The notes under the pieces are model-generated. The model was not told where the DNA came from. It searched no databases and saw nothing but the letters and a program-made list of their open reading frames with translations. A program made the translations under genes and the position numbers. A stretch of 49,915 nt of DNA from Desulfobulbus sp. (GTDB lineage Bacteria; Desulfobacterota; Desulfobulbia; Desulfobulbales; Desulfobulbaceae), in assembly GCA_041738515.1 (NCBI GenBank), contig JBGSPP010000299.1, positions 1-49,915 of the forward strand, read 5' to 3'. Below are positions 15,485 to 40,764 of this stretch, one piece after another (position 1 is the first letter of the stretch; the number at the start of each line of letters is the position of its first letter).

Positions 15485-15503
15485 AATTATTCCCCGATCA
15501 ACC

Positions 15504-16547: not shown

Positions 16548-16585
16548 GCTTACTCCTTGGACTCCATCGACCGCAGGCACTCCCG

Positions 16586-18426: not shown

Positions 18427-18469
18427 CCCCCCGTGCAACAGAGCATGAGCCAGACAGGGAGGAACAATC

Positions 18470-20282: not shown

Positions 20283-21235
20283 TACACATCCGAGTCGCCC
20301 ATGGAAAAATACCATTTTTTTTCCTCTTCCATGCAATGGGCGCGTTCATCCAGCACCTTGGCGCCAAAATAGGTGACCGGCTGGGAAAGGATAAAACCTA
20401 TTTTCTCGGTCGCCAAATGTCGTTCGTCATTGAGCGGCATCCAACAATTTATATAGCTCAAATTGAACTGTGAAAAATGCTGAATAATAGCGTTAAACAG
20501 ATCTAACAAGAGATGTGTATCCTGGGGAAAGCACAACTCAACAATATCTATCTCGAAATATCCTTTATTATCAATAGAATGGAAGAGTTTTGCAACGGCA
20601 AACCATTCAAGCTCCGAGGATTCTGTAAACGAAAAAAGCGTATACTCGTTACTCGGATTGATTAAATATCTCCACGAAAGATACTTCTCCGTTTTCATGA
20701 CCCGAATGTGAAATTTCGAGGCAATCTTCCTGTATGCCTCGACATGCCCCGCAGTGAACTCTTTGCAGGGCAAAGTCTGAAACGTTTCTACTTTTCTCAC
20801 TTTTTTTGCTTCTATTCTGAAACTTGGTATGGCGGCAATGTTTCTCCATTGGATATTCTTTATAAAGCCATAATGTGAATTGGCATTAGGGAAACCCCAT
20901 ACCGCAACCATCTGATTTTCTCTGTGTTGGGCATCGTACAGAGCCTTTGCAAGTGCGGGAAATATACCCTTCCCGAAGTACTTCGGGTGGGTCATAGTTG
21001 TCATAGACAGACCAGATAAAACCAAATCATCTCCAATGAGTAATCGTACGGGGAAAAGGGCATAATGTCCGGCAAGCAGATCACCATCCCACATCAGTTT
21101 TATCATCGTCATTCGTTCCGGATTATCGGAAAATCTCCATTTCCAATAGTCCAGAGACATCTCCTTTTTAAAAACAAGAGTAAAGAGTTCAAGGATCTTG
21201 TACTCATCTCCTGTCGAATAATCTCTTATTTCCAT
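20279..21235 (-). CDS. GNAT-family N-acyltransferase, low GC
   Basis: YWKWRF, TMTHPKYFGKGIF (GNAT motif A), VWGFPN, YLSWRY, GDSDVY. Confidence 0.78.
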   Translation of the reverse strand: MEIRDYSTGDEYKILELFTLVFKKEMSLDYWKWRFSDNPERMTMIKLMWDGDLLAGHYALFPVRLLIGDDLVLSGLSMTTMTHPKYFGKGIFPALAKALYDAQHRENQMVAVWGFPNANSHYGFIKNIQWRNIAAIPSFRIEAKKVRKVETFQTLPCKEFTAGHVEAYRKIASKFHIRVMKTEKYLSWRYLINPSNEYTLFSFTESSELEWFAVAKLFHSIDNKGYFEIDIVELCFPQDTHLLLDLFNAIIQHFSQFNLSYINCWMPLNDERHLATEKIGFILSQPVTYFGAKVLDERAHCMEEEKKWYFSMGDSDVY

Positions 21236-21257
21236 AGAAAAAGCCTCTCAGCGGATG

Positions 21258-21866
21258 CTATTTCACCGTACGTCCCTGACCGATATCATCCAGCAACTTT
21301 TCATGACATCCAATCACAGATCCCCGACCAATACGTATCCCCTCCCTGACCACCGCACCACTGCCCACGAAGCATTCATCTTCCACGATAACGCCGCCGT
21401 TGAGCAAAGCGCCTGTGGAAATGTGACAATGATTACCCACCACAGCGTCATGCTCGACCAGGGCTTTGGTGTTGACAATGCAATTCTCTCCCACGCTCGC
21501 GCAGGAGTTGATCAGGGCATGGTGCATGACGATCGTGCCCTGACCTATCCTCGCATGCGGCGAAACATAGGCGAGAGGCGAGACAATCACCGGCAGCTCC
21601 CCTCCTCCGTCGCGAATGGCTTCATATAACTGCTTACGTGGCGCGTAGCGTTTAATCTGGCCGATGGTGACCAGAAAATATCGGTACTGACGCAGGAGCG
21701 CCGGCAGATCAGCATCGTCGGCGAAGACAGGATAGCCGAGAACAGACTGCCCCCGATGCTCGGGCAGATCGACAATGCCGGCAATGCGGAATTCGCCCTG
21801 CTGCTCGATGACGTCGATGCAGGAACGGCAGTGGCCGCCGCCGCCGAGCATCACCAGTTCCTTCAT
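21258..21866 (-). CDS. NeuD/PglD-like sugar acetyltransferase (hexapeptide repeats)
   Basis: LGGGGHCRSCIDV, IGQI, VEHDAVVGNHCHISTGA. Confidence 0.9.
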   Translation of the reverse strand: MKELVMLGGGGHCRSCIDVIEQQGEFRIAGIVDLPEHRGQSVLGYPVFADDADLPALLRQYRYFLVTIGQIKRYAPRKQLYEAIRDGGGELPVIVSPLAYVSPHARIGQGTIVMHHALINSCASVGENCIVNTKALVEHDAVVGNHCHISTGALLNGGVIVEDECFVGSGAVVREGIRIGRGSVIGCHEKLLDDIGQGRTVK

Positions 21867-23014
21867 GCCGGCACGCTGCTGGGGAGGTTGACAATTCGGT
21901 CCGCCAGGTCATCGGCGACAGCGCCGCCATGGGTTTGGCACTGGGCGAACATCGGCAGCCGATTGAGCGGGGTCCAGACCGGCCGGGTCATGACGCCGAC
22001 AGCGTTGGTCGCTGCCAGCAGTTGGTCTCTGGCCTCCAGATTTTTGGCTAGAACAGTGTTCAGCCAGTAATTGGAGCGCGCTCCAGGCGGTTCGGTGACA
22101 AAGGTCAGGGTGCTGTCCCGGAAAAAGGTCTGGTACGCCGCCGCTATGCCACGCTTCTCTTCCAAAAACCGGTCAAGCTGTTCCAACTGACCGCAGCTTA
22201 GCGCCGCATTGATGTTGGGCATGCGGTAATTGTAGCCCACCTCGGTGTGTTCATAGAGATAGGGGTGCGGTTTCTTTGCCGTGGTGGTGAGGTGTCGCGC
22301 GTGGGCCGCAAAACGTTCGTCGTCGGTGACGATCATCCCTCCTCCGCCGCTGGTCACGATCTTGTTGCCGTTGAAGCTGAGCACGCCGGCCAAGCCAAAG
22401 GTTCCGCAATGCCTGTTGAGCTGTGTGCTGCCCAGAGCCTCGGCGGCGTCTTCAATCACCGGCACGCCATGCATGGCGCAGATATCGACAATGGACTGAA
22501 TTCGGCACGGATGCCCGAAGGTGTGCATGGGCACGCAGGCAGCGATCCTTCGACCGGATTGCCGATTGTAGCAGGCGCCGCTGCCCATTCGGGTCTGGGA
22601 GGCAAAGAAATCCTCCAAGGCTGCCGGGTCAAGGCCCATGCTCGCCGGCTCGACGTCGATGAATACCGGCCGGGCGCTGCAGTAGGCGATGGCGTTGGCC
22701 GTGGCTACAAAGGAGATCGGCTGGGTGAGCACCTCATCCCCTGGCCGAACACCAACCGTGAGCAGGGCCGCGTGAAGGGCGGCTGTACCGCAATTGGTCG
22801 CAACAGCGTAGGCCGCGCCGGTCAGGTCTTGAATCATCTCCTCAAGCCTGGTCACATAGGGACCAACCGAGGACACGAAGGTGGAATCGAGACAATCGGC
22901 AACATAACGCCGCTCATTGCCCCGGAACACCGGGGCGTGCAGGGGCACCTTGTCGCAGCCAGGATAGAGCGAGCGGATGAACTCGATGATGGCCTGGGGG
23001 GAGAGTGTGGTCAT
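21863..23014 (-). CDS. legC: LegC-family PLP aminotransferase
   Basis: PLHAPVF, STFVSSVG, EDAAEALGS, SFNGNKIVTSGGGG, GYNYRMPNINAAL, NLPSS. Confidence 0.88.
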   Translation of the reverse strand: MTTLSPQAIIEFIRSLYPGCDKVPLHAPVFRGNERRYVADCLDSTFVSSVGPYVTRLEEMIQDLTGAAYAVATNCGTAALHAALLTVGVRPGDEVLTQPISFVATANAIAYCSARPVFIDVEPASMGLDPAALEDFFASQTRMGSGACYNRQSGRRIAACVPMHTFGHPCRIQSIVDICAMHGVPVIEDAAEALGSTQLNRHCGTFGLAGVLSFNGNKIVTSGGGGMIVTDDERFAAHARHLTTTAKKPHPYLYEHTEVGYNYRMPNINAALSCGQLEQLDRFLEEKRGIAAAYQTFFRDSTLTFVTEPPGARSNYWLNTVLAKNLEARDQLLAATNAVGVMTRPVWTPLNRLPMFAQCQTHGGAVADDLADRIVNLPSSVPA

Positions 23015-23031
23015 GGGTTTTCGCTGCCGGC

Positions 23032-24039
23032 TCAGATGTTGTACAGGTGCGCCTTGTAGCCGCGCAGGTTGTCCGGGTCGGCAAACCAGGTCACCGTTTC
23101 CTTCAATCCCCTCGCCAGGCCATCGCGGCCGCCATACTCGGGTTCCCAGCCAATGAGTCGCCTGGCCTTGGCGTTGTCGGCCCAGAGCCGCTCGACCTCG
23201 CTCTTCTCCGGCCGCAGCCGCTGGTTGTCGGTGGTGATTTCGACTTCCACCCCCATAACCTCGGCGATGATTGATACCAGTTCGCCGATGGACACCTCAA
23301 AATTGCTGCCGATGTTGATCACCTCGCCCACCGATTGTTCCGCCTCCATGACCCGTATGAACCCACGCACCGTGTCGCGAACATAATTGAAGTCGCGGGT
23401 CGGATGCAGGGCGCCAAGGTGCAGTCTGCGCTGCCCGTTCAGGATCTGGGTGATGACCGTGGGAATGACGGCCCGGGCCGACTGCCGCGGCCCGTAGGTG
23501 TTGAACGGCCGGATAACTGCCACCGGCACGTTGAAGGAGGCATGGTAGGACAGGGCAATCTGGTCCGCACCAATCTTGCTGGCCGAGTAGGGCGACTGGC
23601 CCTGCAGGGGATGCTCCTCGGTGATGGGCACAAACCGGGCCGTGCCATACACCTCGCTGGTGCTGGTGTGGACGACCTTGCTCACCCCGAGTTCGCGCGC
23701 TGCCTGGACAACATTCAGGGTTCCCTGAATGTTGGTCGAAACATAGGTGGCCGGCGAGTGATAGGAGTAGGGGATGGCGATGAGCGCGGCCAGATGATAG
23801 ACGCCCTCGCAGCCCTCCATGGCCTTTTTAACCCCGAACGGGTCGCGGATGTCGCCGCTGAACACCTCAATCGCCGACCGGATCTCTTTGGGGGCCTGAT
23901 CGAGCCAGCCCCAGGAATTGAATGAATTATAGAGGACAAAGGCCCGCACGGATTGACCGCTACGGACCAACGTTTCCACCAGATGGGAACCGATGAAGCC
24001 ATCGGCCCCGGTCACCAATACTTTTCCGGTCATCATCAT
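23032..24039 (-). CDS. legB: NAD-dependent 4,6-dehydratase LegB
   Basis: TGADGFIGSHL, YNSFNSWGWLD, LAALIAIPYSY, YSASK, RLRPEKSEVERL, terminal YNI. Confidence 0.9.
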   Translation of the reverse strand: MMMTGKVLVTGADGFIGSHLVETLVRSGQSVRAFVLYNSFNSWGWLDQAPKEIRSAIEVFSGDIRDPFGVKKAMEGCEGVYHLAALIAIPYSYHSPATYVSTNIQGTLNVVQAARELGVSKVVHTSTSEVYGTARFVPITEEHPLQGQSPYSASKIGADQIALSYHASFNVPVAVIRPFNTYGPRQSARAVIPTVITQILNGQRRLHLGALHPTRDFNYVRDTVRGFIRVMEAEQSVGEVINIGSNFEVSIGELVSIIAEVMGVEVEITTDNQRLRPEKSEVERLWADNAKARRLIGWEPEYGGRDGLARGLKETVTWFADPDNLRGYKAHLYNI

Positions 24040-26738: not shown

Positions 26739-28074
26739 ATGGCATCTATCACATTTGGCGGACTGGCCAGCGGACTGGACACGGACTCCATCATCACGGC
26801 AATAATGAATGTCGAGAAGAGGCCGCTGACCAAACTGGAGAACGACAAATCATTTTTCAACACCAGACTGAAAGCCTTTGCCGACTTCAACACCAAGCTT
26901 AAATCCCTGGAAACTGCCTTCAAGGATCTGAGCAGTGCAGACAAATTCCGTTCGTTCACCGCCAAGGCGGCCAGCGAGGAGTTCTTCTCGCTCAAGGCCA
27001 GCAGCACTGCCAAGGCGGGCACCTTTAACATCGAAGTGGTGAACCTGGCCCAGGTCCAGAAGACCGCAGGCGTGGGCTATGCCAGCACCACTTCGGCCTT
27101 CAGCGCCGGCACGATCGATATCAACGGCACCAGCATCGCGGTGACGGCGGACGACACTCTGGGCAGCATTGTCGATAAAATTAATGCTGCCAACACAGGC
27201 GATACGGCCACCGGCGTAGCCGCCTCTCTCATCAACGACGGCACGACCAACGGCTACAGGATGGTCCTGACCGGCAAGGATGCCTCGACAACGTTTACCG
27301 CCACTGCCTCCGGCGTGGCTGCCGACGGTCAGAGCCTGACCTTCACCACCCCCCAGATGGCGCAACAGGCAACAGTCTTGATTGATGGCATCACCATCGT
27401 CAGCAACAACAACACCCCTGAAAAACGCCATCCCTGGCGTTGATCTCACCCTGCTCAAGACCAACACCGCCGGCGTATCCACCCAAATGTCAGTTGCTGT
27501 GGACAACGAGGGGGTCAAGAAAAAATTGGACGCTTTTGTCAGCGCCTACAACGATATCATTAAATTTGTCTCGGACCAGAAGGGCAGCAGTTGGGCCAAC
27601 GACTCGAGCATGCAGTCCGCCAAACGGCGAATGATGGGCATGCTGACCGAGGCCGTAGGCGGGGACAACCCGCTGCAACGGTTGGTGGATATCGGCATCA
27701 AAACCAACAAGGACGACGGCACTATCTCGCTTGACAGCACCAAGATCGAAAAACTGATCAGCGAGGATTTTGAAAGCTTGGAGAATTTGTTTCTCGGCAA
27801 GGATGGCGCCGACGGAATCAATGATAAATTCCTAAATTATCTGTCCGGATTAACCGATTCAAACCAAGGCCTGTACGCCTCGAAGAAAAAAAGCACCGAA
27901 AGCGCTGTCAAGGGAATAGAGCGAAACATCGACAGCATGAATCTCCGGCTGGAAAAAAGAGAAGCGTCGCTACGCGCCCAATTTCAATCACTCGAACTGC
28001 TCATGAGCTCGATGAACGCGACCAGCAACTATCTCACCCAGCAGATCAGCAGCATGAACGCCAGCAAGGGATAA
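26739..28074 (+). pseudogene. fliD: Filament cap FliD split by a single-base +1 frameshift (real indel or sequencing error)
   Basis: N-part GLASGLDTDSII (26739-27443) and C-part LKNAIPGVDLTL...LRAQFQSLE (27382-28074); deleting one C of CCCC at 27415-27418 gives SNNNTLKNAIPGV and one 444-aa ORF. Confidence 0.88.
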
Positions 28075-29086: not shown

Positions 29087-29788
29087 TTGCCATCACAGAA
29101 CAGTTTCTCATTTAACATCAAGGAAGGAAAAGCTGTGCGGGCCGCCATACCACTCATCGGCGCAGCGGAACGTGAACGGTTCGACTGCACCTACGGGAGA
29201 GCGGAACCCCCGACGTTCTTCCTCTCCTTTCCCCTGGGCATCCTGGCTGTCGAGCAGATCGACCCAACCAGAACCTGCCTGGTGATCGTTGATTCCGAAG
29301 AGCAGGCTCTTGCCATTTCCGCCGACATCCTGGGGAGCAGGGATGCAAACACCTTGGAATTGCGAGCCAGGGACGTGGCCAACCACTCCCAGTCCCGCAA
29401 CTTTTTCCGGGTCGACGCCTCCACCAGGGTGGCGGCCTCCTCGGTGATTCCCGAGGAACTGGCCCGGAAAGGGGAAAACTGGCGCCTGCTTGGCGATACG
29501 CTGGATTTGAGCGGCAGCGGCCTCCTGTGCTCCTTCGGCGCCCCAATAGAAGAGGGAAAAAAGGTAAAGATTGACCTGACGCTGCCCACCAGCAGTCTGG
29601 AGACGATCACTGCCATAGGCCATGTGGTGCGTTGCAAAAGGATAGGGGAAGAACTGTATCACGTCGGTTTGCAGTTTGATTCCATCGATTCGGAAAGCCA
29701 GGACAAGATCATGGCCTGCTGTTTTGAGATTCAGCGCCAGGGATTGCGGATGCGGGTGAAGGTACGGAAGGAACGAGAGTACTTTTAG
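29087..29788 (+). CDS. PilZ-domain protein (start uncertain)
   Basis: RNFFR (RxxxR) and DLSGSG (DxSxxG), GHVVR, VGLQF. Confidence 0.85.
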   Translation: MPSQNSFSFNIKEGKAVRAAIPLIGAAERERFDCTYGRAEPPTFFLSFPLGILAVEQIDPTRTCLVIVDSEEQALAISADILGSRDANTLELRARDVANHSQSRNFFRVDASTRVAASSVIPEELARKGENWRLLGDTLDLSGSGLLCSFGAPIEEGKKVKIDLTLPTSSLETITAIGHVVRCKRIGEELYHVGLQFDSIDSESQDKIMACCFEIQRQGLRMRVKVRKEREYF

Positions 29789-29913
29789 GAATCCGCAGGC
29801 ATGCAGGGTACAAGCACCCTGGCTGTGGACTATTCTCCGGGCAGCATTGCATGAAAAACAACGGTCATCGCTCCGACTGAACCGTCACGTTACCTTGAAC
29901 GAGAACGCGCACC

Positions 29914-30588
29914 GTGTCCAGAATCGATGAAATCCTAGAAAAAATGAACGACAAGGCCGCCACCGTTGTCGATCTTCCCGGGAACAAGGAAGAGGTATTC
30001 CGCTGCAAGGCCTTGCTGATCAAGCAAGAGTCCCCGCAACTGGAACTGCTGTTCCCGCCCAATTCCTGGATAGCAGAGGATCTCCGTTTAGGCGCGAACT
30101 GCAACCTGTCCATTGATCAAAACGGGAAACAGATCAGCCTGATAGCCAAACTCGATTCGGTGGTCGATGCCCGGCGATTGCAGTTCACCGCACGGGAGCC
30201 GATCACGCCCGAGTCGATGCGGGATTATTTCCGCGTCACCATCAGCACCGCGATCCAGGCAAGCTATGTCGCCGAACCCAGAGAAACGAAGGTGCAATCC
30301 TGGAAAATGGTCGGCACCACCATCGATTTGAGCGGCAGCGGCGTCCTGGCCATGTTTGCCACCAAGCCACCCAGCAACCACAGAATTTTGCTGGAAATCA
30401 CTCCTCCCGAGGACAACGAGCAGATATTCTGCCTCGCTGACGTAGTTCGCACCTATAGAATCCGAAACAACCGTTACCAGGTCGCATTTCATTTTATCGA
30501 AGTGACCGCCAAGGTCAGGGATCAGATCATATCCTGCTGCCTGAAGGAACAGCGGCGCCAGTTGCGTGAAAATGTCCGCACCGAATGA
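29914..30588 (+). CDS. PilZ-domain protein, paralogue of the upstream gene
   Basis: RDYFR and DLSGSG, ADVVR, VAFHF. Confidence 0.85.
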   Translation: MSRIDEILEKMNDKAATVVDLPGNKEEVFRCKALLIKQESPQLELLFPPNSWIAEDLRLGANCNLSIDQNGKQISLIAKLDSVVDARRLQFTAREPITPESMRDYFRVTISTAIQASYVAEPRETKVQSWKMVGTTIDLSGSGVLAMFATKPPSNHRILLEITPPEDNEQIFCLADVVRTYRIRNNRYQVAFHFIEVTAKVRDQIISCCLKEQRRQLRENVRTE

Positions 30589-30729
30589 CAGTAGTGTTCC
30601 ACGCCTCGGGCCGGCTTCCTTCCCATAACCCTTTGCCCGCATGCCCCACGTCAAGCGCATCCGGCGCGACGTACATCCAGAATTCCACGACGGCTGACGA
30701 TCCCCGTTCCAGCCAGGACGCCCCAGGTA

Positions 30730-32232
30730 ATGGAAGCCACTGCCGCCACCATCCCGATCCTGCGCATCCAGCAACTCCCGGCCTACAACCAGGGCGGAGG
30801 ACAGCACCAGACTCCCTTTGCCCAGGGACAGCTGCTGCAGGGGATTATTAGCGCCAGGAACGGGACTAACCTCTTTACCATCGATATTGGCGGCCAGCAG
30901 GTCCAGGCCGAATCCACGACGCAGCTGCAGGTCGGCCAGAAACTTGACCTGCAGGTTGCGACCCTGTCACCGCGGGTGGAGTTGCAGATTGTCTCCAATC
31001 CGGCCAACCGGTTGATCGGCAACTCCATTCACCTGATCGGCCAGCAGGCCCTGCTTTTGCCCGAGTTGGCCCAGTTAAGCGAGAAATCCGGCTTTCTGCC
31101 GAACATCAGCAACGATGCGCGGGGCACCCTGCAACTGTATGCCAGCGCCCTGGCAACCGGGGGAACCATTGCCGCGCCACGATCCGAACAGCTCAGCGGT
31201 TTGCTCGGACAGCTTGCCGGCACTTCGCTGCAGACGCTCCTGTCGCCGCAGCAGACCACCGCGTCCGCGTTCAATGAAACAATAACCAGCCTGCTGCAGC
31301 AACTGTCGCAAACAGCCGCACTGCCCGCGCAAAGCGCGGAACGGGCCGTCCAGCTGGCCACCATGTTTGCCAATGCGTCGGCTCCGCAGGCATCCACGGC
31401 CGGCCAGACTCCGGCCCAGGCGCAACAGCCTGTGCTGCTGACAAACCAGGAGGTGGTACTGCTGCTCAACCTGGCCGGCAAGCAGGGTCCCTCCCAGGCC
31501 AATAATCTGATCGCCAGCCTCCTGCCAGCACTGCAGAACGGCGAGAATCTGCCCGTACTGCCGGCCATGCAGACGCTGGTTCGGTTTCTCGCCGACCTGG
31601 ATGCAGAACTTTCCTCGCTCAGGCAACCCGCTCTCGATGGCGGCCAGGTACAGCAACTCGTAGAGCGACTGGGCATGAACATGGAACAACTCCTGGCCGA
31701 AGGCAGGCGGCAGGAGGCGGTGCAGACACTGAAATACGCTCTACTGGATCTGAGCCAGCAGCTGCCGGCCGAGGATAAAGCCGCGGCACAGGCCGATCAG
31801 ATTGTCAAATCCATCGAACTCTACCAGCTCCTGCAGATCCGGCTGGCAAGCGAGTCGCTTCTTTTTCTTCCCCTGCCCTTCTCTTTTCTCAATCAAGGTT
31901 ATCTTGTGGTTGATGCCGAGCAACACAAGAACGACCAGAAGGAGACCAACAGCCAGCGCACGCCTGCCTATGAACTGCACCTGCAACTGGAGGGTCTGGG
32001 CAACATCCAGATAAATCTGCGCAAGGAAAATGACCGACTGGTTTTAACCTTTTACGCGCAGGATGCCGAACGAGTCAGGTTTCTCGCTGGATTTCGCGAT
32101 GAACTTGAACGCTGGCTGACCAGCGCCGATCTGGAATCGGTCCAGTTCCTGGTCGGCGCCAAGGAACCGGTGAAATCGCTCCTGGAACGGATAGTCCAAG
32201 GCGTCACTGGCATGGTGGACACCAGGGCCTGA
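30730..32232 (+). CDS. FliK-like protein (Gln/Leu-rich, C-terminal hook-length-control-like domain)
   Basis: C-terminal LHLQLEGLGNIQINL...GMVDTRA; adjacent to a FlhB-C-like gene. Confidence 0.6.
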   Translation: MEATAATIPILRIQQLPAYNQGGGQHQTPFAQGQLLQGIISARNGTNLFTIDIGGQQVQAESTTQLQVGQKLDLQVATLSPRVELQIVSNPANRLIGNSIHLIGQQALLLPELAQLSEKSGFLPNISNDARGTLQLYASALATGGTIAAPRSEQLSGLLGQLAGTSLQTLLSPQQTTASAFNETITSLLQQLSQTAALPAQSAERAVQLATMFANASAPQASTAGQTPAQAQQPVLLTNQEVVLLLNLAGKQGPSQANNLIASLLPALQNGENLPVLPAMQTLVRFLADLDAELSSLRQPALDGGQVQQLVERLGMNMEQLLAEGRRQEAVQTLKYALLDLSQQLPAEDKAAAQADQIVKSIELYQLLQIRLASESLLFLPLPFSFLNQGYLVVDAEQHKNDQKETNSQRTPAYELHLQLEGLGNIQINLRKENDRLVLTFYAQDAERVRFLAGFRDELERWLTSADLESVQFLVGAKEPVKSLLERIVQGVTGMVDTRA

Positions 32233-32253
32233 ACGCCGTGGCGGGAAGCATCA

Positions 32254-32562
32254 ATGGCAGAAAACGAAAACAAGGCACGAAAGGCTGTCGCCCTGCTCTA
32301 CGACAAGTCCAGGGGAACAGCGCCCAAGGTGGTTGCCAGCGGCGCCAACTTGACGGCGGAACGCATTATCGCCACTGCGCTTGAGGCCGGCGTCCACATC
32401 AAGGAAGACCCGGATCTGGTCGAGTTGCTGGCAAAAATTCCGGTCGGCGAAGAGATCCCGGCTGAACTCTACCAGACCATTGCCGAACTCCTGGCCTTTG
32501 TGTATTCAGTGAACGCCAAATTCAAGGAAAAACTGGGGAATCCGGGACAGGAACAGCGATGA
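32254..32562 (+). CDS. Stand-alone FlhB C-terminal-like protein (FlhX/YlqH-like)
   Basis: KAVALLYD...APKVVASG...AERII...GEEIPAELYQTIAELLAFVY; no transmembrane part and no NPTH. Confidence 0.88.
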   Translation: MAENENKARKAVALLYDKSRGTAPKVVASGANLTAERIIATALEAGVHIKEDPDLVELLAKIPVGEEIPAELYQTIAELLAFVYSVNAKFKEKLGNPGQEQR

Positions 32563-32868: not shown

Positions 32869-33267
32869 ATGAACTATGGAGTTGTCAGCCAGGAACAACT
32901 TGAAAAAATTGACGAGATCCTCACCGATAAACTCATCAAAATAGGTGTGGATTGCGTCATCATCATCGATATGGCTGGAAATATTATCACAGCCAAGGAT
33001 AACGGCACGTCGAAATACGATGTCTATTCGTTCGCCGCACTGGCAGCAGGCAACTTTGCCACCGTTGACGCCATGGCCAAACTCGTCGGTGAACAGGAAT
33101 TTTCGCTGCTGTTCCACAAGGGCACGGAATGCAACATCCACTTCTCGAAAATCGACGACGAATTGCTGCTGATCACCATGTTCGGCAAGAGCATATCGCT
33201 TGGTTTCCTGCGTCTCAATGTGGTGGAAACCATCGAGCGCATCAAGAAGATCTGGCACCGCAAGTGA
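32869..33267 (+). CDS. mglB: Roadblock/LC7 protein MglB
   Basis: IIIDMAGNII, FAALAAGNFAT, LVGEQEFSLLFHKG, SLGFLRL; directly upstream of mglA. Confidence 0.9.
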   Translation: MNYGVVSQEQLEKIDEILTDKLIKIGVDCVIIIDMAGNIITAKDNGTSKYDVYSFAALAAGNFATVDAMAKLVGEQEFSLLFHKGTECNIHFSKIDDELLLITMFGKSISLGFLRLNVVETIERIKKIWHRK

Positions 33268-33349
33268 TCCGGCCCAACCGGTCTCGGCCCGAGATGAAAG
33301 GGAACACGTTCCTTCCTTGCGATCAGTGCAGGAGAGCAGGAGAACTACG

Positions 33350-33955
33350 TTGAGCTTTATTAATCTGAGAGAAAAAATCGTTCAGGTCAAGATTGTCTAC
33401 TACGGTCCTGGCCGCGGCGGCAAGACAACCAATCTTGAATACATTAACCGTAAATTCTCCAAGCAGATCCAGTCTGAGATGGTCAGTCTGAAGACGCATG
33501 GAGACCGCACCCTCTTCTTTGATTTCCTTCCGTTCAACATGGGGCAGATCAAAGGGTACGATCTGAAGATTCAACTGTATACCGTACCTGGCCAGGTGAA
33601 ATACAACGCCACCAGAAAACTGGTGCTCAAGGGCGTCGATGGTCTCGTCTTTGTCGCCGACGCCCAGGAGCAGATGCGGGAGAAAAACATCCGCTCGCTC
33701 AATCAGCTGCACGAAAACCTCCTGAGCTACAAGGAATCCATTTTTCGGATACCGCTGGTGTTGCAGTACAACAAGGTTGATCTGCGCAATCAGGGCATCC
33801 CGATTTTGCCCACCTCGGTTCTGGAGAAGGACCTGAACGGCAAACTGAAGGTTCCCGCCTTTGAGGCCAGCGCGCTTACTGGATATAACGTACCGGAAAC
33901 GTTGAAGAAAATTATATCATCCACGGTAATTTCCATTCAGAAAAAGTTGATGTGA
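33350..33955 (+). CDS. mglA: Ras-like small GTPase MglA (TTG start, AGGAG RBS)
   Basis: KIVYYGPGRGGKTTNL, DRTLFFDFLP, YTVPGQVKYNATRKLVLKGVDG, QYNKVD, EASA. Confidence 0.93.
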   Translation: MSFINLREKIVQVKIVYYGPGRGGKTTNLEYINRKFSKQIQSEMVSLKTHGDRTLFFDFLPFNMGQIKGYDLKIQLYTVPGQVKYNATRKLVLKGVDGLVFVADAQEQMREKNIRSLNQLHENLLSYKESIFRIPLVLQYNKVDLRNQGIPILPTSVLEKDLNGKLKVPAFEASALTGYNVPETLKKIISSTVISIQKKLM

Positions 33956-33991
33956 ATCCATGATCTTGGCAGCTGAATCCAGAACTGTGAT

Positions 33992-36900
33992 ATGAAAAAA
34001 ACGAAGCAGGAACAGATTTACAACATTGACGAAATCGAAGATCTTACCCTCTTCGCAAACGAATCCTTCGACACGCAAGAAGTCGATTTGTTTGAATTTT
34101 CCAGTGAGGAATCCTCGCCCCTGACGCGACTGAAGTCTATTATTCTCTCGCTGGACTGGGAAATTAACGACGAGACCCTCCAGGAACTGGCCGACGAACT
34201 GCAAAACATGCAGGCCACATGGCAGGGCGACAAGGTGGCCGAGGTCTACCTGCAGGGGCTGGAGAAAATTGGCCGCTACCTTCGCAGTAAAGGGGCCTAC
34301 GCCCATCCCAACTCAATCAAGCTGCTCCTCACTTTCTTTTATAATTTCGAAAAGATTACCTCGTCACCGAATCTGAGTGGTGAGGACATCACCAAAATTC
34401 TGAAGAGTGACATTCGCAAATTTAAAATTCTCCAATACCAGATCAATCAGAGCGAAGAGATTGAGCGCGCTCCGGCAACCCCATCCACTGAACAACAGGG
34501 AACACCTGTCGTCCCGGTCGGTATGGATGCGTCGTCTTCCGAGCCCAATCCCCTCAAATTGCTGAAGGCCGCCATCCTCAGCCTGGACTGGGAAGTGACC
34601 GATGAAAGCCTCCGGCAGTTCAATGTCCGCCTCGATCAGTACCAGGAAACGGTTTCGGAAAACAGGCTGGTGATGGTGATGGTTCAGGGCCTGCGTGCCT
34701 TGGGCGACTACATCGGCGAAGAACGCGCCGAAGCGCACCCGGAAGCCTTCCCCCTGCTCCATTCCTTCAGCGATGCCTTGGATCAGGTTGCCCAGGTCGA
34801 CGAATCAGCCACCGATCAGAGCAAGGTCCAGGATATCCTTGTTGAACAGATCAGCCGGCTCAACAATCTGAAACTGCTCATTGCCGCACCGCAAGAAGCG
34901 CGGATTGATGAACAGCTGATTAACGAAGTCGTGGGAGAAATAAGTGCGCCGGTGGCGATGGAAGACATCGCCGAGGAACCGTTCGCCCAGACCGAGGCAG
35001 AAAAGAGGGCTTCCCACGCCTTTGACCTCCCGACTGATTCCCCGGCTGTCATGCCGGCTACGGCAGCCAGTGGCGGGCAGGAGGCAGACATCTCCCTGGA
35101 GTCGGAGCTGGATATTCTGTTTGGAACGGAAGCCAAGCCGGCCATGGAATCCGCTGACACCCAATATCCCGACGAGATACTGCCCCCCGAGGCTATCACC
35201 CCCGTCGAGGACGAACTGGCCGACGACCTCATCGAGGCGAGTCTGCACACCAAACGCGGGCTGATGCCTGCTCTCTCCGGCGTCGAGGATACCTCTGCCT
35301 TCCGGGACGACGTCGATCAGGCGGACACCAAAGGTCAGGCTGATCTCAACCAGCAACTGGACGACCTCTTTGCCGAGGCGGAAAATGCATCGTCCATCCC
35401 TCCCTCGCCCTCGCTTGATTTCGAGGAAAGTCTCCCGGGTGGTGATGCAGCCCATGCAGGCCCGGTCACTGCAACGGTCGCCATAGATGAAGAAGATGAC
35501 GACCAACCAGCCCTGGGTTCGCTGAATCTGGAAGACAGCGACGGCATGACCGTCGCTGCGCTCAGCGATGTGGAAGCACCTGAGGACCGGTTCGAACCAG
35601 AGTCGCCCGTCGCCGAAATCGATGGGGGCATGTCTGACCTGGATGCCAAACTAGACAGCTTTTTTGGGGAGGAGCCCTTGGAAGTCGTTGCTCCGAGCCT
35701 CTCCCTGTCCGACGAATCAGAAGTGGCCCCGGCACTCGAAGATGACGAACCAATCCAGGCTGAACTGACCGTCGCCGCGCTCAGCGATTCGGACATTGAA
35801 CTCGCTGACGTGACGATACTTCAGCCGGAAGATGTGAAACCGGAATCTCTTGATATTGAAAGCGAACTGGACGGTTTTTTCTCCGACGATACAGTCGTGG
35901 CCGTGGAAGATGTCATGCAAACGACCTCCACCGGCCCCTCGGTTGAGGAGGTCGAACAATCCCTGTATTTCGGCGCGGAAAGCCCGGTGGAAGCAGCCCT
36001 GGCAGACAGCGACGAAGACAAGGGGTTCTCGGAAGAAGAGGCGCTTGCCGCTCTGGAATACACGCCTCTGGAGGAAATCGAGGAGAATTTCGATGCCTTC
36101 TTTGGCTCGGAAACAGCAGAAGAACTCTTGCCCGAAGCCGATCAAATCGATGCAGCGGCTGGACAACTCGTTCCTGCCGAAGGGTTGACATTTGAGGAAG
36201 AGACGCCCGCGCTCGGCTCCGATCTGTTCGCCGGATTTGAAACAGAGCAAGAAGAAATTGTCCCGGCGCTTGCCTCCTTTGACCAAGACATGCCCGCGGC
36301 TGAGGAATTGGTCGCGGCCGTGGCTGGAAGAAAGGACGAAGCAGACAGGGATCTGGACGAGAAACTTGATTTCTTCTTCGACGAGGAAGCGGCGGAACCC
36401 GCTCCCGCCGTCGCCAATGCACCCGAATCGCCTGCCCGGCAACCGGAGATCGAGGATTTGCTGACACTCGAGAATGAGGTTCCGGCGCTGTCTTCTGACC
36501 TGTTGAGCGAAATTTTGGAAGAAGATGCAGATGTCGTCCCGGCACTCGCCGCAGCATTTGACGAGGGTGCCGAAGAACTGACGCCTGCCGCCGGCATTCC
36601 TGGCGAGGAAGTGCCCGACAGAGATCTCGATGACCAACTGGACTATTTCTTCGCCGCTGAGGAGAACGTCGCGGCGGAATCCGTCACCGAGACGGTCAGC
36701 GAACTGACCCAGGCCCTTGAAGCAGCAACCCTTGATGGCAGAGCGCCTGCGGCTGCCGCCTTCCCAGGCCTCTTGCCTGGCACTGGATCGGAGGGGGAGG
36801 GAATGGAAGTGGTTCTGGCCTCCCTCGGAGCATTGCTTCCTGGCGTTGTCCGTGCACCTGGCCGTGGACCTGTCACTGAATCCATGCGCCTGCTTGACCG

Positions 36901-37270
36901 GTTGCAGCAGCAGGCTGCCTCACCCGAGCACCGCTCCCTGGCCCAACTGCTCAACTCCACGGTCAGCCTGCTTGGTCGCACGGCCGGAAAAGACAAAACC
37001 GAGACGGAAAAGCTGGTTAATTTCCTGTATGAGCAACTTCTGCACAAGGAAATCAACGCCAATGCCGTGACCGAGGCAGTCAGCCGTTTCGCCGGCTGGA
37101 TGCAGAACCTGTGCGCCACCATGCCGCTGGTGCCGGAGAAAACCGGCGAGGAACGGGAACCCCGCTTCGAGTACACGGCCAAGGAATTGTATTTCGAACT
37201 CTCCGAAATGCGGGCCAGCTTTCGCGAAGAACTCGCCAAGCTGCGCCACGAGATGCACCACAGGCACTGA
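33992..37270 (+). CDS. 1092-aa acidic protein: two LSLDWE domains, disordered region with repeated LDxFF motifs, helical C-terminus
   Basis: Long ORF 36 nt after mglA; internal repeats visible in protein and DNA. Confidence 0.85.
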   Translation: MKKTKQEQIYNIDEIEDLTLFANESFDTQEVDLFEFSSEESSPLTRLKSIILSLDWEINDETLQELADELQNMQATWQGDKVAEVYLQGLEKIGRYLRSKGAYAHPNSIKLLLTFFYNFEKITSSPNLSGEDITKILKSDIRKFKILQYQINQSEEIERAPATPSTEQQGTPVVPVGMDASSSEPNPLKLLKAAILSLDWEVTDESLRQFNVRLDQYQETVSENRLVMVMVQGLRALGDYIGEERAEAHPEAFPLLHSFSDALDQVAQVDESATDQSKVQDILVEQISRLNNLKLLIAAPQEARIDEQLINEVVGEISAPVAMEDIAEEPFAQTEAEKRASHAFDLPTDSPAVMPATAASGGQEADISLESELDILFGTEAKPAMESADTQYPDEILPPEAITPVEDELADDLIEASLHTKRGLMPALSGVEDTSAFRDDVDQADTKGQADLNQQLDDLFAEAENASSIPPSPSLDFEESLPGGDAAHAGPVTATVAIDEEDDDQPALGSLNLEDSDGMTVAALSDVEAPEDRFEPESPVAEIDGGMSDLDAKLDSFFGEEPLEVVAPSLSLSDESEVAPALEDDEPIQAELTVAALSDSDIELADVTILQPEDVKPESLDIESELDGFFSDDTVVAVEDVMQTTSTGPSVEEVEQSLYFGAESPVEAALADSDEDKGFSEEEALAALEYTPLEEIEENFDAFFGSETAEELLPEADQIDAAAGQLVPAEGLTFEEETPALGSDLFAGFETEQEEIVPALASFDQDMPAAEELVAAVAGRKDEADRDLDEKLDFFFDEEAAEPAPAVANAPESPARQPEIEDLLTLENEVPALSSDLLSEILEEDADVVPALAAAFDEGAEELTPAAGIPGEEVPDRDLDDQLDYFFAAEENVAAESVTETVSELTQALEAATLDGRAPAAAAFPGLLPGTGSEGEGMEVVLASLGALLPGVVRAPGRGPVTESMRLLDRLQQQAASPEHRSLAQLLNSTVSLLGRTAGKDKTETEKLVNFLYEQLLHKEINANAVTEAVSRFAGWMQNLCATMPLVPEKTGEEREPRFEYTAKELYFELSEMRASFREELAKLRHEMHHRH
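35096..36658 (+). repeat. Seven copies of an acidic amphipathic motif (D/E)-(L/I)-x-x-x-(L/F)-D-x-(L/F)-F inside the acidic ORF
   Basis: LESELDILFG, DLNQQLDDLFAE, DLDAKLDSFFGE, DIESELDGFFSD, EIEENFDAFFGS, DLDEKLDFFFDE, DLDDQLDYFFAA. Confidence 0.8.
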
Positions 37271-37300: not shown

Positions 37301-37678
37301 TCACTCAGCCGGACAAGGGGTCAGGGCAACTGTCGTCTCCTCAGGCAGTCCGGGCAGCCAGGCCGGCAAGGTCCGACACATACCGTTCCCGCACACCGTA
37401 TACGGCGTCACGTAAGGCGAATGGCGCAGCAACACCTGCGGCAGGACTTGCAGATCAGGCCGGTATCGCCAGACTCCATCCTCCAGCACCGCCCCGGCCG
37501 GTGGCTCCATACCAGCGCCAGTACCTTGCACCCGCGCCTCGATCAGGCGCAGCCCCTCCCCTTCCCGTCGAAAATCTTCTTCCCAGACACTCCGCTGAAT
37601 TGAATGGGTCCAGCGCAGGGTAATATCGTCGCCAAACCCGGCAATGAGTATACCTGCGACCAGACAAATCCCAGTCAT
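37301..37678 (-). CDS. DUF1850-family protein
   Basis: TLRWTHSIQRSVWEEDF, ARVQGTGAGMEPP; ATGA overlap with the TRAP permease. Confidence 0.8.
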   Translation of the reverse strand: MTGICLVAGILIAGFGDDITLRWTHSIQRSVWEEDFRREGEGLRLIEARVQGTGAGMEPPAGAVLEDGVWRYRPDLQVLPQVLLRHSPYVTPYTVCGNGMCRTLPAWLPGLPEETTVALTPCPAE

Positions 37679-39738
37679 TGCGGCCGACGTGTGCGCCACC
37701 AATGCCAACTGAGAAAAAGCAGACAGATGGCAAAACCAATCTCATCTGTCAGCGGCAGGGCGGCCACCAGCAGAAATGCGCCGGCAGCAGCGACCGGTCG
37801 CTCCCATATGGCCAACGGCCCACGCAAATAGCCAATGGCTGCCGCTCCCCACAGGGTAATCGCCAGGAGCGCCTTACCCACAATATAACCGATGGCCAGT
37901 AGGCTGGGAGAACCCTGCAACATCAGCGCCGGATCGTAGACGGCCATGAAGGGAACGACAAAGCCGGCAATGGCAATGATCACCGCCTTGAAGCCGATTT
38001 TCATCGGCGATTCCTTGGCGATTGAACTGGCCGCGAAGGCGGCCAGCGCCACTGGTGGCGTCAAATCAGCCATAATGCCGAAATAAAAGACAAACATATG
38101 ACTGACAATGAGCGGCACGCCGAGCTTGAGCAGTGCAGGCGCGGCTATCGAACTGGTGATGATGTAGTTGGGAATGGTTGGGATACCCATGCCGAGCAGC
38201 AGGCAGACCAGCATGGTCAGGACCAGGGAGAGAAACAGGTTCTGCTCTCCGACTTTGAGGATATAGCCGGCGAAGCTGGAAGCTGCTCCAGTCAGGGTCA
38301 AAACACCGATAATGACGCCGACGATGGCACAGGCAACACCCACCGGGAGGGCCTGACGCGCCCCATCGATCAGGCTGTCGCGCAGCAGGCGCAGGGTATC
38401 ACGCCCACCGCGAACCATCAGACAGACGGCGGCCAGCGTGATGATCACCGTCAATACCGGATAGACGCCCCATTTCACCAGGGTTGCGCAGGCAAGCCCC
38501 ACCGCCAGCCAGAACACATAGCGGAAGGCCAGCGCCGACAGGCCAGCCGCCACAGTGGCGCCGAGGATCAGAATCGCGGTCAGGGCCAGGCCGACCATGC
38601 CGGAATACATCGGTGTGAAACCATTGAACAACATCCACACCAGCGCCGCCAAGGGTAGAATCAGATGCCATTGCCGGCGCATCGCCTGCCAGGGGTTGGG
38701 GCATTCCTCTTTGGGCAGGCCGAGCAGCTGCTTGCGGCCGGCCTCCAGATGTACCATCCAGAAGACGGTGGCATAATAGAGCATTGCGGGCACTGTCGCA
38801 GCCTTGACGATTTCTCCGTAAGAGACATTGAGGTTTTCCGCCATGATGAAGGCCACCGCGCCCATTACCGGCGGCATGATCTGGCCGCCCATGGAGGAGG
38901 TGGCCTCGACAGCTCCAGCAAAAATGCCGGAGTAGCCGAAGCGTTTCATCAGTGGGATGGTGAACTGGCCGGTGGTCAGTACATTAGCAACGCCAGATCC
39001 GGAAATCGTGCCCATCAGTCCGGAAGACAGCACCGACACCTTGGCCGCACCGCCCTTGGTGTGACCGACAAAACCGAGTGCAATCGAATTGAACAGGTTG
39101 ATCATCCCGGCATGCTCGAGAAAGGTGCCAAAGAGGATAAACAGAAAGATATAGGTAGCCGAGACCAGCGTCGGAATACCGAAAATGCCCTCGGTGCCGA
39201 ATCCAAGCTGATCGACGATCTGCTCAAAGGCGAACCCGCGATGGGCCAGATCACCGGGCAGATGCTGACCGAACAGGCCGTAGAGCAAAAAAATGCCGGA
39301 CACAAGCGGCAAGGCCAGGCCCATGATGCGCCGGGCCGCCTCAAACACCAGCAGCACCATGATCGTGCCGACCCACAAGTCGGGCGTTGTGGGTTCGCCG
39401 GCGCGCTGGATCAGATCGCCCTCGTAGATCCACTGATAGGTAGAGAGGAGAAAGCCGAGCCCGGCAAACAACCAGTCGACAGGCGCAACCTTGTCAGGTC
39501 GCCCACCCTTGCCATACGGATAGAGGACAAAGGTCAGCGCCAGCAGAAAGCCGACATGCAGCGAGCGGGTCACCAGGCTGGAGAGGGGGTGAAAGGCGGC
39601 AACCACCAACTGGTAGCTGGAAAAAGCCAGCGCCAGAGCGGAGAGCAGGAACAACGCCAAGCCGGTCAACCGCCGTTGCACGCCATGTTCAGAGAATGCT
39701 TGCGGGTCGTGATCTGAGTGTTGGCTGTGATCAGACAT
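37675..39738 (-). CDS. TRAP transporter fused 4TM/12TM permease
   Basis: GTISGSGVANV, EATSSMGGQIMPPVMG, GMGIPT, HMFVFYFG, DLTPPVALAAF. Confidence 0.93.
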   Translation of the reverse strand: MSDHSQHSDHDPQAFSEHGVQRRLTGLALFLLSALALAFSSYQLVVAAFHPLSSLVTRSLHVGFLLALTFVLYPYGKGGRPDKVAPVDWLFAGLGFLLSTYQWIYEGDLIQRAGEPTTPDLWVGTIMVLLVFEAARRIMGLALPLVSGIFLLYGLFGQHLPGDLAHRGFAFEQIVDQLGFGTEGIFGIPTLVSATYIFLFILFGTFLEHAGMINLFNSIALGFVGHTKGGAAKVSVLSSGLMGTISGSGVANVLTTGQFTIPLMKRFGYSGIFAGAVEATSSMGGQIMPPVMGAVAFIMAENLNVSYGEIVKAATVPAMLYYATVFWMVHLEAGRKQLLGLPKEECPNPWQAMRRQWHLILPLAALVWMLFNGFTPMYSGMVGLALTAILILGATVAAGLSALAFRYVFWLAVGLACATLVKWGVYPVLTVIITLAAVCLMVRGGRDTLRLLRDSLIDGARQALPVGVACAIVGVIIGVLTLTGAASSFAGYILKVGEQNLFLSLVLTMLVCLLLGMGIPTIPNYIITSSIAAPALLKLGVPLIVSHMFVFYFGIMADLTPPVALAAFAASSIAKESPMKIGFKAVIIAIAGFVVPFMAVYDPALMLQGSPSLLAIGYIVGKALLAITLWGAAAIGYLRGPLAIWERPVAAAGAFLLVAALPLTDEIGFAICLLFLSWHWWRTRRPQ

Positions 39739-39776
39739 CGGCTGGTAAGAAAATGCAGGGAATGATGACTATCCGG

Positions 39777-39802
39777 CCGGCGACAGGTTTCCCTGTCGCC
39801 GG
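39777..39802 (-). other. Intergenic stem-loop after the TAXI binding-protein gene
   Basis: CCGGCGACAGG-GAAA-CCTGTCGCCGG on the minus strand (11-bp stem, GNRA loop). Confidence 0.6.
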
Positions 39803-39822
39803 GAGACAGCGCAACAGAATTC

Positions 39823-40764
39823 TTACAGCAGACCGGCTTCGCGGTAATACTTCTCGGCGCCGGGATGCAGCGGCGCCGGCGGGTTTTTGCCTGCGGTGGC
39901 CTTGTTGATCGCCTTGGCGGCGGCGTGGGCGGCGGTCATCGCCTCAAGGTTCTCAAACATCGATTTGGTCATCAGATAGACGGTCTCGGCGGGCACACCC
40001 TCGTGGGTGACCAGATAGTTTTGCACCGCCACTGTCGGCACGTCCGTGGTTTGGCCGGTGTAGGTGTTGGCGGGAATGATGCCGGGTGAGTAGGAACTGT
40101 CGCCGATTTTCGCCACCACCTCGGCCGGGATGGGAACCACCACCGTTTTCACGGCAGTGGCCAGGTCACGCACCGCGGCAACACCCAGACCCGAAGAGAG
40201 CAGAGTGGCATCCAGTTGCCGGTTTTTAATCAACTCCACCGATTCGGCGTAGCCAAGGTATTCGATCTTGCCGAGATCCTTGTAACTCATGCCCGCGGCT
40301 TTCAGGATGTAGCGGCTGTTCAGCTCGGTGCCGCTTTTCGGGGCTCCGACGGAAACACGCTTGCCCTTGAGGTCGGCCAGGCTGGTGATGCCGGAGTCGG
40401 CACTGGCAAGGAAGTGGATGTAATTCGGGTAGATGGCGGCCACGGTGCGCAGCTTGGAGAGCGGTGTCTTGAAGCCGGCCTCCTCGTTGCCTTTATAGGC
40501 CTCGCTGAAGGTGTCGCCCAGGGTAAAGGCTACTTCGCCGCGTCCGTTCTGCAGCAGATTGAGGTTTTCCGCCGAAGCCTTGGTCGCCTGTACCGAAGTC
40601 TTCACGTCCGGCATCACCTTGCTGTAGATCTGTGTCAGCGATACGCCCAGCGGATAATAGACGCCGCTGGTACCGCCGGTCAGCACGTTGATGAACTCCG
40701 CTGCATGGCCAGCCGATACGGTCAACAGGAAGAGAAAAACGGAGAATAGAATGCGTGTATTCAT
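39823..40764 (-). CDS. TAXI-family TRAP solute-binding protein
   Basis: Signal peptide, TGGTSGVYYPLG, ASAENL, GAPKSGTE, PLHPGAEKYYRE. Confidence 0.93.
   Translation of the reverse strand: MNTRILFSVFLFLLTVSAGHAAEFINVLTGGTSGVYYPLGVSLTQIYSKVMPDVKTSVQATKASAENLNLLQNGRGEVAFTLGDTFSEAYKGNEEAGFKTPLSKLRTVAAIYPNYIHFLASADSGITSLADLKGKRVSVGAPKSGTELNSRYILKAAGMSYKDLGKIEYLGYAESVELIKNRQLDATLLSSGLGVAAVRDLATAVKTVVVPIPAEVVAKIGDSSYSPGIIPANTYTGQTTDVPTVAVQNYLVTHEGVPAETVYLMTKSMFENLEAMTAAHAAAKAINKATAGKNPPAPLHPGAEKYYREAGLL

What the first reader, a model, noticed from the sequence alone, without database searches (positions are those of the whole stretch)
32869..37270. Tail-less MglB, MglA and a giant acidic protein carrying about 7 copies of an MglB-tail-like helix
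Seen: MglB (132 aa) ends at IKKIWHRK right after the roadblock fold. MglA keeps the catalytic Arg (DRTLFF) and Gln (PGQ). The next gene has a long acidic low-complexity region with seven motifs such as DLNQQLDDLFAE, DIESELDGFFSD and DLDDQLDYFFAA (starting near 35096, 35342, 35636, 35852, 36074, 36350, 36623). Established (sequence recalled from memory): Myxococcus xanthus MglB has a C-terminal extension ending roughly DDDIDNLFSE whose helix binds MglA and promotes nucleotide exchange. Inference: GAP and exchange/docking functions are split here, with the helix supplied in trans and multiplied on a scaffold. This would be a three-gene polarity switch attached to a flagellar rather than gliding locus. 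Alternative: the motifs resemble CheZ C-terminal or FliM N-terminal CheY-binding peptides.
Basis: partly seen in the sequence, partly recalled or inferred. Interest (0 to 1): 0.85.

Follow-up and report, generated by a model that had tools for sequence, protein, structure and literature searches.

The report
MglA partner carrying MglB's missing helix
In one large branch of sulfate-reducing bacteria and cable bacteria, the polarity GTPase genes mglB and mglA are followed by an undescribed third gene, and its short acidic helices likely dock the GTPase in place of the tail that this MglB lacks; binding itself is untested.

Summary
Observation confirmed: MglB ends three residues after the roadblock fold, MglA keeps Arg53/Gln82, and the 1092-aa protein has seven acidic helical motifs (shuffles give 0.008). 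The gene is a conserved third member of the mglB-mglA operon across Desulfobacterota: directly after mglA in 159 of 161 loci; 0 of 165 linked MglBs have the tail, and 0 of 18 tailed-MglB loci have the gene (one evolutionary split). Distant members carry one such helix at the N-terminus (46 of 51; 0.34 by chance), a His-less CheA-P1-like bundle and often a CheW-like domain; here there are three bundles and seven helices; cable bacteria have 1900-2800-aa forms. Best reading: the MglA-docking helix is supplied in trans (about 0.55). Against: a profile of real MglB tails does not pick these repeats, the Asp triad and pocket Lys185 are missing, two MglA-less genomes keep the motifs, and no complex could be modelled. 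The flagellar link is not supported (18 of 148 loci; 27 of 56 family genomes lack FliM). Exchange activity is untested. The scan noted this family before on three other genomes.

The parts
32869..33267 (+). mglB, 132 aa roadblock/LC7 protein without the C-terminal helix; Ala at the Mx Asn37 position, Glu at the Mx Arg98 position
33350..33955 (+). mglA, 201 aa Group 1 small GTPase (Arg53, TVPGQ, NKxD); allosteric-pocket positions M64, I67, K at 181, S at 185 (Mx numbering); only MglA/roadblock pair found in this 85%-complete genome
33992..37270 (+). third gene, 1092 aa, no Pfam or NCBIfam match; three helical bundles, acidic linker with seven helices, C-terminal helix
34118..34468 (+). five-helix bundle 1 (aa 43-159), CheA P1/Hpt-like fold, no His in helix B
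34550..34885 (+). five-helix bundle 2 (aa 187-298), same family
35096..35122 (+). acidic amphipathic helix motif 1 (aa 369)
35345..35371 (+). motif 2 (aa 452), best-modelled repeat
35639..35665 (+). motif 3 (aa 550)
35855..35881 (+). motif 4 (aa 622)
36077..36103 (+). motif 5 (aa 696)
36353..36379 (+). motif 6 (aa 788)
36626..36652 (+). motif 7 (aa 879)
36794..37120 (+). five-helix bundle 3 (aa 935-1043), degenerate copy of bundles 1-2
   Evidence: (hhalign E 1e-4, probability 56%)
37178..37264 (+). C-terminal amphipathic helix (aa 1063-1091), candidate oligomerisation helix (inferred)

Best explanation
The gene after mglB-mglA encodes a conserved third component of a branch of MglA/MglB switches whose MglB has no tail, and its acidic helices likely dock on MglA's allosteric pocket in place of that tail. 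Shown: linkage, tail loss, motif conservation, domain layout. Inferred: (1) each helix binds the alpha5/beta2-beta3 groove of MglA; (2) tail-less MglB would act as GAP only on MglA-GTP, through a co-changed interface (MglB Arg98 to Glu/Asp while MglA Glu50 became Lys/Arg/His); (3) holding or reloading of MglA, the job of the tail in M. xanthus, would then happen wherever the third protein sits; (4) the His-less Hpt-like bundles and, in deep members, a CheW-like domain would anchor it, likely at chemoreceptor arrays or a pole; (5) Desulfobulbia multiplied bundles and helices into a multivalent scaffold. The output is more likely type IV pili or surface motility than the flagellum (weak inference).
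For: Third gene directly after mglA in 159 of 161 loci holding all three genes; 0 of 165 roadblock proteins in these loci carry a tail motif. In 80 loci chosen by MglA similarity alone, all 54 MglBs are short and 48 of 49 with enough downstream DNA have the third gene, 43 of 48 with the motif before the bundle. All 18 tailed MglBs (ending about ITDDDIDNLF) lack the gene within about 4 kb. In 46 of 51 non-Desulfobulbia third proteins the motif lies before the first bundle, mostly within the first 40 residues; shuffles give 0.34; its core there is I/V-D-x-L-F, as in the tail, and a profile of these motifs ranks the window's seven repeats in the top eight positions and picks the tail as best site in 16 of 18 tailed MglBs. 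Deep members keep K/R181 (96%), K185 (96%), L/I/V64 and I/V67, the residues that PMC6785124 (passages read) links to tail binding, although their MglB has no tail. Precedent: the RomR Glu-rich helix replaced the tail in a chimera (PMC6785124), and a tail probably acted in trans in linked constructs (10.1101/2023.03.05.531159). Two sister genomes without detectable MglA/MglB have a shortened third protein with no intact motif, and three motif-less paralogues have no mglA in the fetched stretch.
Against: A profile of 18 real tails scores the seven repeats at -7.4 to 0.5 bits, below shuffled linker: the Asp150-152 triad and the I-T N-cap are absent. In the window's subclade Lys185 is Ser (90%). 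Five MglAs with neither MglB nor third gene also keep K181 (80%) and K185 (60%), so pocket retention is not specific. Tail loss and third-gene presence map to one branch, and pocket-motif covariation is one event, so neither is a statistical test. Two 99-100% complete genomes (G457, G418) keep two intact motifs with no MglA/MglB found, and G027 likewise (its contig breaks inside the gene). Whether the tail's effect is a true GEF activity is itself nuanced (PMC13408092, Discussion read).
Confidence: 0.55

Rival explanations
1. The third protein is a dedicated MglA/MglB partner, but it binds through the bundle (conserved LSLDWE surface), as a RomY-like GAP co-activator or effector; the acidic helices bind something else, such as MglB (as RomR binds MglB/MglC) or a polar landmark.
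For: The LSLDWE segment is the most conserved part of 274 bundles (Trp 90%). MglB of this branch lacks Asn37 and Arg98 (0 of 152 with Arg), which support GAP activity in M. xanthus, so a co-GAP is plausible (RomY: PMC9481161 passages). Motifs persist in G457/G418 without MglA. RomR's C-terminal helix binds MglC and MglB-MglC (PMC12719032 passages).
Against: G457/G418 lack MglB too; no second roadblock (MglC) was found in the window's genome; the MglB change is mirrored by a charge change in MglA switch I, which can keep GAP function without a cofactor. This rival and the best explanation can both hold.
Confidence: 0.25
2. The helices are LD-like motifs that bind the protein's own bundles or C-terminal helix, building a self-assembling PopZ-like acidic mesh that hosts MglA/MglB.
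For: Layout of short amphipathic helices in an acidic disordered linker with a C-terminal helix; helix number and linker length expand together in Desulfobulbia; helical bundles such as FAT bind LD helices (established knowledge).
Against: In the full-length AlphaFold2 model six of seven repeats stay at pLDDT about 50-65 and the chain pTM is 0.34, with no sign of confident intramolecular packing (coordinates not inspectable). Minimal members have one helix and one bundle. It does not explain the complementarity with MglB's tail.
Confidence: 0.12
3. The helices mimic the CheZ C-terminal or FliM N-terminal peptide and, with the Hpt-like bundles, capture CheY-like regulators, making the protein a chemotaxis adapter only loosely tied to MglA.
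For: Bundles have a CheA-P1-like fold; 55 of 172 complete members carry a CheW-like domain; upstream genes here are flagellar.
Against: Linkage is to mglA, not to che or fli genes (159 of 161 against 18 of 148); 27 of 56 family genomes with the domain have no FliM match; no CheZ in 5 of 5 genomes tested; no His in helix B. I had no CheZ/FliM peptide set to score against.
Confidence: 0.08

Closest known systems
C-terminal helix (Ct-helix) of Myxococcus xanthus MglB, PDB 6IZW (PMC6785124)
   Same: Short acidic amphipathic helix ending [IL]D-x-[LF]F; cognate MglA of Group 1 with pocket residues largely kept
   Different: Sits on a separate protein, at its N-terminus or in up to nine copies; lacks the Asp150-152 triad and I-T cap; has an extra hydrophobic at -4; binding untested
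RomR (with RomX) of M. xanthus (PMC3441718, PMC12719032, PMC13408092)
   Same: Folded domain, long disordered linker, C-terminal helix; its Glu-rich helix can replace the MglB tail in a chimera
   Different: No receiver domain; His-less Hpt-like bundles instead; encoded in the mglBA operon; many helices; no sequence match found
RomY of M. xanthus (PMC9481161)
   Same: Third partner acting with MglB on MglA
   Different: RomY is 188 aa and unlinked; no comparison of folds was possible
CheA P1 (Hpt) domain, PDB 1I5N; non-phosphorylated Xpt domains of ChpA (PMC12632253) and FimL (recalled)
   Same: Five-helix bundle, VIA Z 12.1 over 111 residues; CheW-like domain in deep members suggests a kinase-less CheA remnant
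   Different: No conserved His in helix B, no Pfam Hpt match, no kinase core; tied to mglBA
FimV/HubP and PopZ polar scaffolds (recalled)
   Same: Highly acidic repeats or linkers with short helices; some database entries of homologues are labelled FimV
   Different: No LysM, FimV or PopZ family match; the label likely reflects composition

Membership tests
Group 1 MglA | Intrinsic arginine finger next to G2 Thr and TVPGQ G3 motif | tested here: met
Group 1 MglA | Coupled mglB gene | tested here: met
M. xanthus-type MglB (GAP plus Ct-helix) | Roadblock/LC7 fold | tested here: met
   PF03259 above cut-off; E 1e-15 to 6IZW chain B
M. xanthus-type MglB (GAP plus Ct-helix) | D/E-rich C-terminal helix more than 15 residues beyond the fold | tested here: not met
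M. xanthus-type MglB (GAP plus Ct-helix) | Asn37 and Arg98 contacting MglA switch I | tested here: not met
   Ala and Glu here; Arg in 0 of 152 tail-less MglBs, 18 of 18 tailed
M. xanthus-type MglB (GAP plus Ct-helix) | GAP activity on cognate MglA | not testable with these tools
   needs biochemistry
MglB Ct-helix motif (for the repeats) | [IL]D-x-[LF]F amphipathic core in a helix | tested here: met
MglB Ct-helix motif (for the repeats) | Asp150-Asp151-Asp152 triad and full-motif similarity | tested here: not met
   tail profile scores repeats below shuffled linker
MglB Ct-helix motif (for the repeats) | Binds the MglA alpha5/beta2-beta3 pocket and speeds exchange | not testable with these tools
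Hpt / CheA P1 domain (for the bundles) | Five-helix P1 fold | tested here: inconclusive
   best natural match 1I5N, Z 12.1, rmsd 2.8, 111 aligned, Foldseek probability 0.99 but E 0.21; Z is under the 13 advised for helical bundles
Hpt / CheA P1 domain (for the bundles) | Conserved phospho-accepting His in helix B | tested here: not met
   at most 5% His in any helix-B column of 274 bundles; the only frequent His (62%) is in the C-D loop; His position in CheA is recalled
RomR | N-terminal receiver domain | tested here: not met
   no Pfam match; all-helical model
RomR | RomR-C homology | not tested
   no RomR sequence was available from a tool
FimV/HubP | LysM or FimV family domains with a membrane anchor | tested here: not met
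   no Pfam or NCBIfam family; no dedicated membrane-helix predictor was run
CheZ | CheZ phosphatase domain | tested here: not met
   no match in the protein or in 5 genomes

The most novel reading that the evidence does not exclude
A kinase-less, His-less CheA remnant (Hpt-like bundle plus CheW) captured the MglB tail helix and so wires the MglA switch directly to chemoreceptor arrays, separating GAP and reloading sites by gene split; in Desulfobulbia it grew into a multivalent acidic scaffold, up to 2800 residues in cable bacteria, where it would set the polarity behind filament gliding reversals.
Probability: 0.3. Interest if true: 0.88.

Novelty: new variant of a known kind. Interest (0 to 1): 0.7.

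Why it matters
How MglB's GAP and exchange-promoting activities are separated in space is an open question in the M. xanthus literature. Here evolution appears to have split them onto two genes in a whole branch, which gives a natural, purifiable test system. The family is large (1014 clusters at 50% identity), has no Pfam or NCBIfam model, and offers the first concrete candidate for polarity control in cable bacteria: none of the 15 listed cable-bacteria papers contains the word MglA.

Tried and rejected
Self-BLAST found no internal repeats. Pfam, NCBIfam and PDB sequence searches found nothing for the protein or the bundle profile. Foldseek on the full-length model gave no match at E 0.001. 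Search for longer homologues with the window query found none, although 1900-2800-aa members exist, so that search was insensitive. Tail-derived profile did not recognise the repeats. Pocket-motif covariation gave one or two independent pairs, no test possible. The careful tree did not finish; the quick tree is used. Promoter-like sites at 32636 and 32682 are only consensus matches (5 found, 1.7 expected). Atlas search with a CheW-bearing homologue gave unnamed CheW clusters and, as leads only (0.79, 0.76), Hpt-CheW clusters. Supplements of PMC6785124 gave no hit for six Desulfobacterota genus stems; the Wuichet 2014 supplement was not read and may list these neighbourhoods. Rejected: flagellum-specific role; phosphorelay through the bundles; FimV membership; chance or frameshift artefact. 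Expression was not examined. Range outside Desulfobacterota was not established.
Full report
Observation. MglB (132 aa) aligns to M. xanthus MglB residues 7-129 and stops three residues later. MglA (201 aa from a TTG at 33350) keeps Arg53 and TVPGQ. The 1092-aa protein holds seven motifs of the form hydrophobic-x3-[LF]D-x-[LF]F at aa 369-879; linker shuffles give 0.008 on average. No paralogue of the three genes and no second roadblock protein was found in this 85%-complete genome.

Anatomy of the third protein. It has no Pfam or NCBIfam match. AlphaFold2 with an 88-row alignment gives three five-helix bundles (aa 43-159, 187-298, 935-1043, pLDDT mostly above 90), a C-terminal helix (1063-1091) and the seven motifs as isolated helices in a disordered linker. 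Bundle 3 is a weak profile match to bundles 1-2 (E 1e-4). The bundle alone (pLDDT 94.9) best matches, among natural proteins, the CheA P1 domain (1I5N Z 12.1, rmsd 2.8, 111 aligned; three more CheA P1 entries in the top seven; Foldseek probability 0.99, E 0.21). That is suggestive, not decisive, for a helical bundle. No helix-B column has more than 5% His in 274 bundles, so phosphotransfer at the canonical site is unlikely.

Distribution and linkage. The bundle profile matches 166 of 200 high-quality genomes of the class, 65 of 283 of the phylum (this profile misses distant members that an iterated one finds) and 1014 protein clusters at 50% identity. Named relatives are Desulfobulbus and Desulfogranum, Ca. 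Electrothrix and Ca. Electronema, and Syntrophobacteraceae, Desulfomonilaceae, Desulfobacterales and others. In 161 fetched loci holding all three genes, the third gene follows mglA directly in 159. Nine loci of two flagellum-less genera carry 1920-2784-aa forms; close homologues of one of them are the cable-bacteria proteins. Outside Desulfobulbia the protein is 200-900 aa: one to four motifs near the N-terminus, one bundle, and either a CheW-like domain (55 of 172 complete members by an iterated profile seeded on five Pfam-positive cases; one also matches CheA models weakly) or a C-terminal amphipathic helix. The motif lies before the first bundle in 46 of 51 such proteins against 0.34 expected (the pattern derives from the window's repeats).

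Complementarity with the MglB tail. None of 165 roadblock proteins in third-gene loci has a tail motif; the longest extension is 20 residues, apart from one PilZ-fused paralogue. In 80 loci chosen by MglA similarity alone, all 54 MglBs are short, 48 of 49 testable loci have the third gene (5 more end at contig edges), and 26 loci have no mglB in the stretch, most belonging to a separate paralogue. I fetched 20 hand-picked loci of the roughly 50%-identity MglA class listed: 18 have a tailed MglB and none has the third gene within about 4 kb; two have no MglB in the stretch. On the quick MglA tree the 18 tailed systems are one side of a 99%-supported branch: the pattern is one event, with no statistical weight beyond that.

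How like the tail are the repeats? From PMC6785124 (abstract, section 13 and passages read) the tail has Ile148, Asp150-152, Asp154, Leu156 and Phe157 and contacts MglA Leu64, Ile67, Lys181 and Lys185. The repeats share only the last part. A profile of the 18 tails scores them below shuffled linker. A profile from the 61 distant third-protein motifs (core I/V-D-x-L-F) ranks the seven repeats in the top eight positions of the protein (only two exceed the shuffle 95th percentile singly) and picks the tail as best site in 16 of 18 tailed MglBs, each weakly. So the link is transitive and modest. Deep tail-less systems keep K/R181, K185, L/I/V64 and I/V67; the window's subclade has K181, a new K182, Ser185 and Met64, and its motif shifts in step, once. 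Five MglAs with neither partner also mostly keep the lysines.

MglB itself is remodelled. Asn37 and Arg98, which support GAP activity in M. xanthus (10.1101/2023.03.05.531159, passages), are N/D and R in 18 of 18 tailed MglBs, but A/S/T in 152 of 152 and never R in tail-less ones (130 of 152 E/D). MglA Glu50 (18 of 18 tailed) is K/R in 93% of deep and His in 91% of shallow tail-less systems. I infer a charge swap that preserves the contact; a need for a co-GAP is the alternative.

Natural losses. Five 99-100% complete genomes have the third gene but no MglA or MglB match (which held no positive control; the single-protein search found MglA in 166 of 301 genomes and not in four of these five; G027 was not in it). 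In G031 and G063 the protein is cut to about 610 aa with no intact motif; in G457 and G418 two motifs remain; in G027 the contig breaks inside the gene. One event for, one against.

Not a flagellar module. flhB-like or fliK-like neighbours occur in 18 of 148 loci with at least 2.5 kb upstream, all in the window's family (BLAST with window proteins may miss distant flagellar genes). In the family, 56 of 56 genomes have the bundle and 29 of 56 have FliM. PilT-family matches above cut-off occur in 5 of 5 genomes tested, three of them without FliM; CheZ in 0 of 5. That T4P are the output is an inference from M. xanthus and from PMC3441718 (passages).

Mechanism and odds. Most likely the helices dock MglA at the allosteric pocket in trans (0.55); whether that speeds exchange or only tethers MglA is open, and PMC13408092 (abstract and Discussion) shows the GAP/GEF picture is not simple. 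Rivals: bundle as the MglA/MglB-binding part with helices binding elsewhere (0.25), self-assembly (0.12), CheY capture (0.08). No complex model could be obtained.

Novelty. Eight literature searches listed no paper on this gene or on MglA in Desulfobulbaceae or cable bacteria; Wuichet and Sogaard-Andersen (PMC4316618, passages) report variable Group 1 neighbourhoods and do not mention CheW in the main text. The library omits most subscription papers. PMC9481161, PMC12719032 and PMC12632253 were read as passages. Three earlier notes of this scan describe the same family on other genomes; I saw them after my own analysis and they are not independent evidence. I class it as a new variant of the MglA/MglB switch with an undescribed third protein family; interest 0.7.

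Noticed in passing
window 26739-28074: Two overlapping ORFs (234 and 230 aa) between flagellin and fliS; the second reads like the C-terminal half of FliD (recalled), so fliD may be split by a frameshift or assembly error.
   Followed up: no
window 12968-24039: Flagellin glycosylation-type island (MptE/TPR protein, NeuB, epimerase, nucleotidyl- and cytidylyltransferases, aminotransferase, dehydratase) inside the flagellar cluster, before two flagellins.
   Followed up: no
window 29087-32562: Two PilZ proteins, a FliK-like and a short FlhB-like gene precede mglB; this block is next to the cassette only in part of the family.
   Followed up: partly
L162 (G000:C325:2281-5823): The genome's FliM scores far lower on PF02154 than FliM of other families in the class and did not match a recalled pattern for the CheY-binding N-terminal peptide: possibly a divergent flagellar type.
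   Followed up: partly
L123-L127, L205, L207, L210-L243 (many): A sister MglA paralogue with no mglB in the stretch, followed by a conserved ~390-aa gene whose start resembles the DUF4388 proteins; not scanned against Pfam.
   Followed up: no
L249:2747-9500: Operon mglB, mglA, a degenerate third-gene copy, three DUF4388 genes, a Cache/HAMP membrane protein without output domain, a c3-type cytochrome and an intact third gene; same order in L250 and L251 as far as seen.
   Followed up: partly
L097-L099, L135: One family has two cassettes per genome (G287), one with a 278-aa MglB bearing an N-terminal extension and a third protein with three or four motifs.
   Followed up: no
L035, L036, L116: Paralogues with bundle and CheW-like domain but no motif and no mglA in the fetched stretch.
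   Followed up: partly
L082:4388-5458, L100:3390-4001, L091:2254-3231: Domain variants: third protein with a hydrophobic stretch and HAMP; bundle fused to an HTH-like domain; roadblock fused to PilZ.
   Followed up: no
L041:2776-11130: A 2784-aa member whose linker holds dozens of near-identical ~50-residue units with GLDDFF and ESLF cores: ongoing tandem expansion in a flagellum-less genus.
   Followed up: no
window 37301-40764: TRAP-TAXI transporter (DUF1850, DctM fusion, TAXI receptor) on the opposite strand; not linked to the cassette in relatives.
   Followed up: partly
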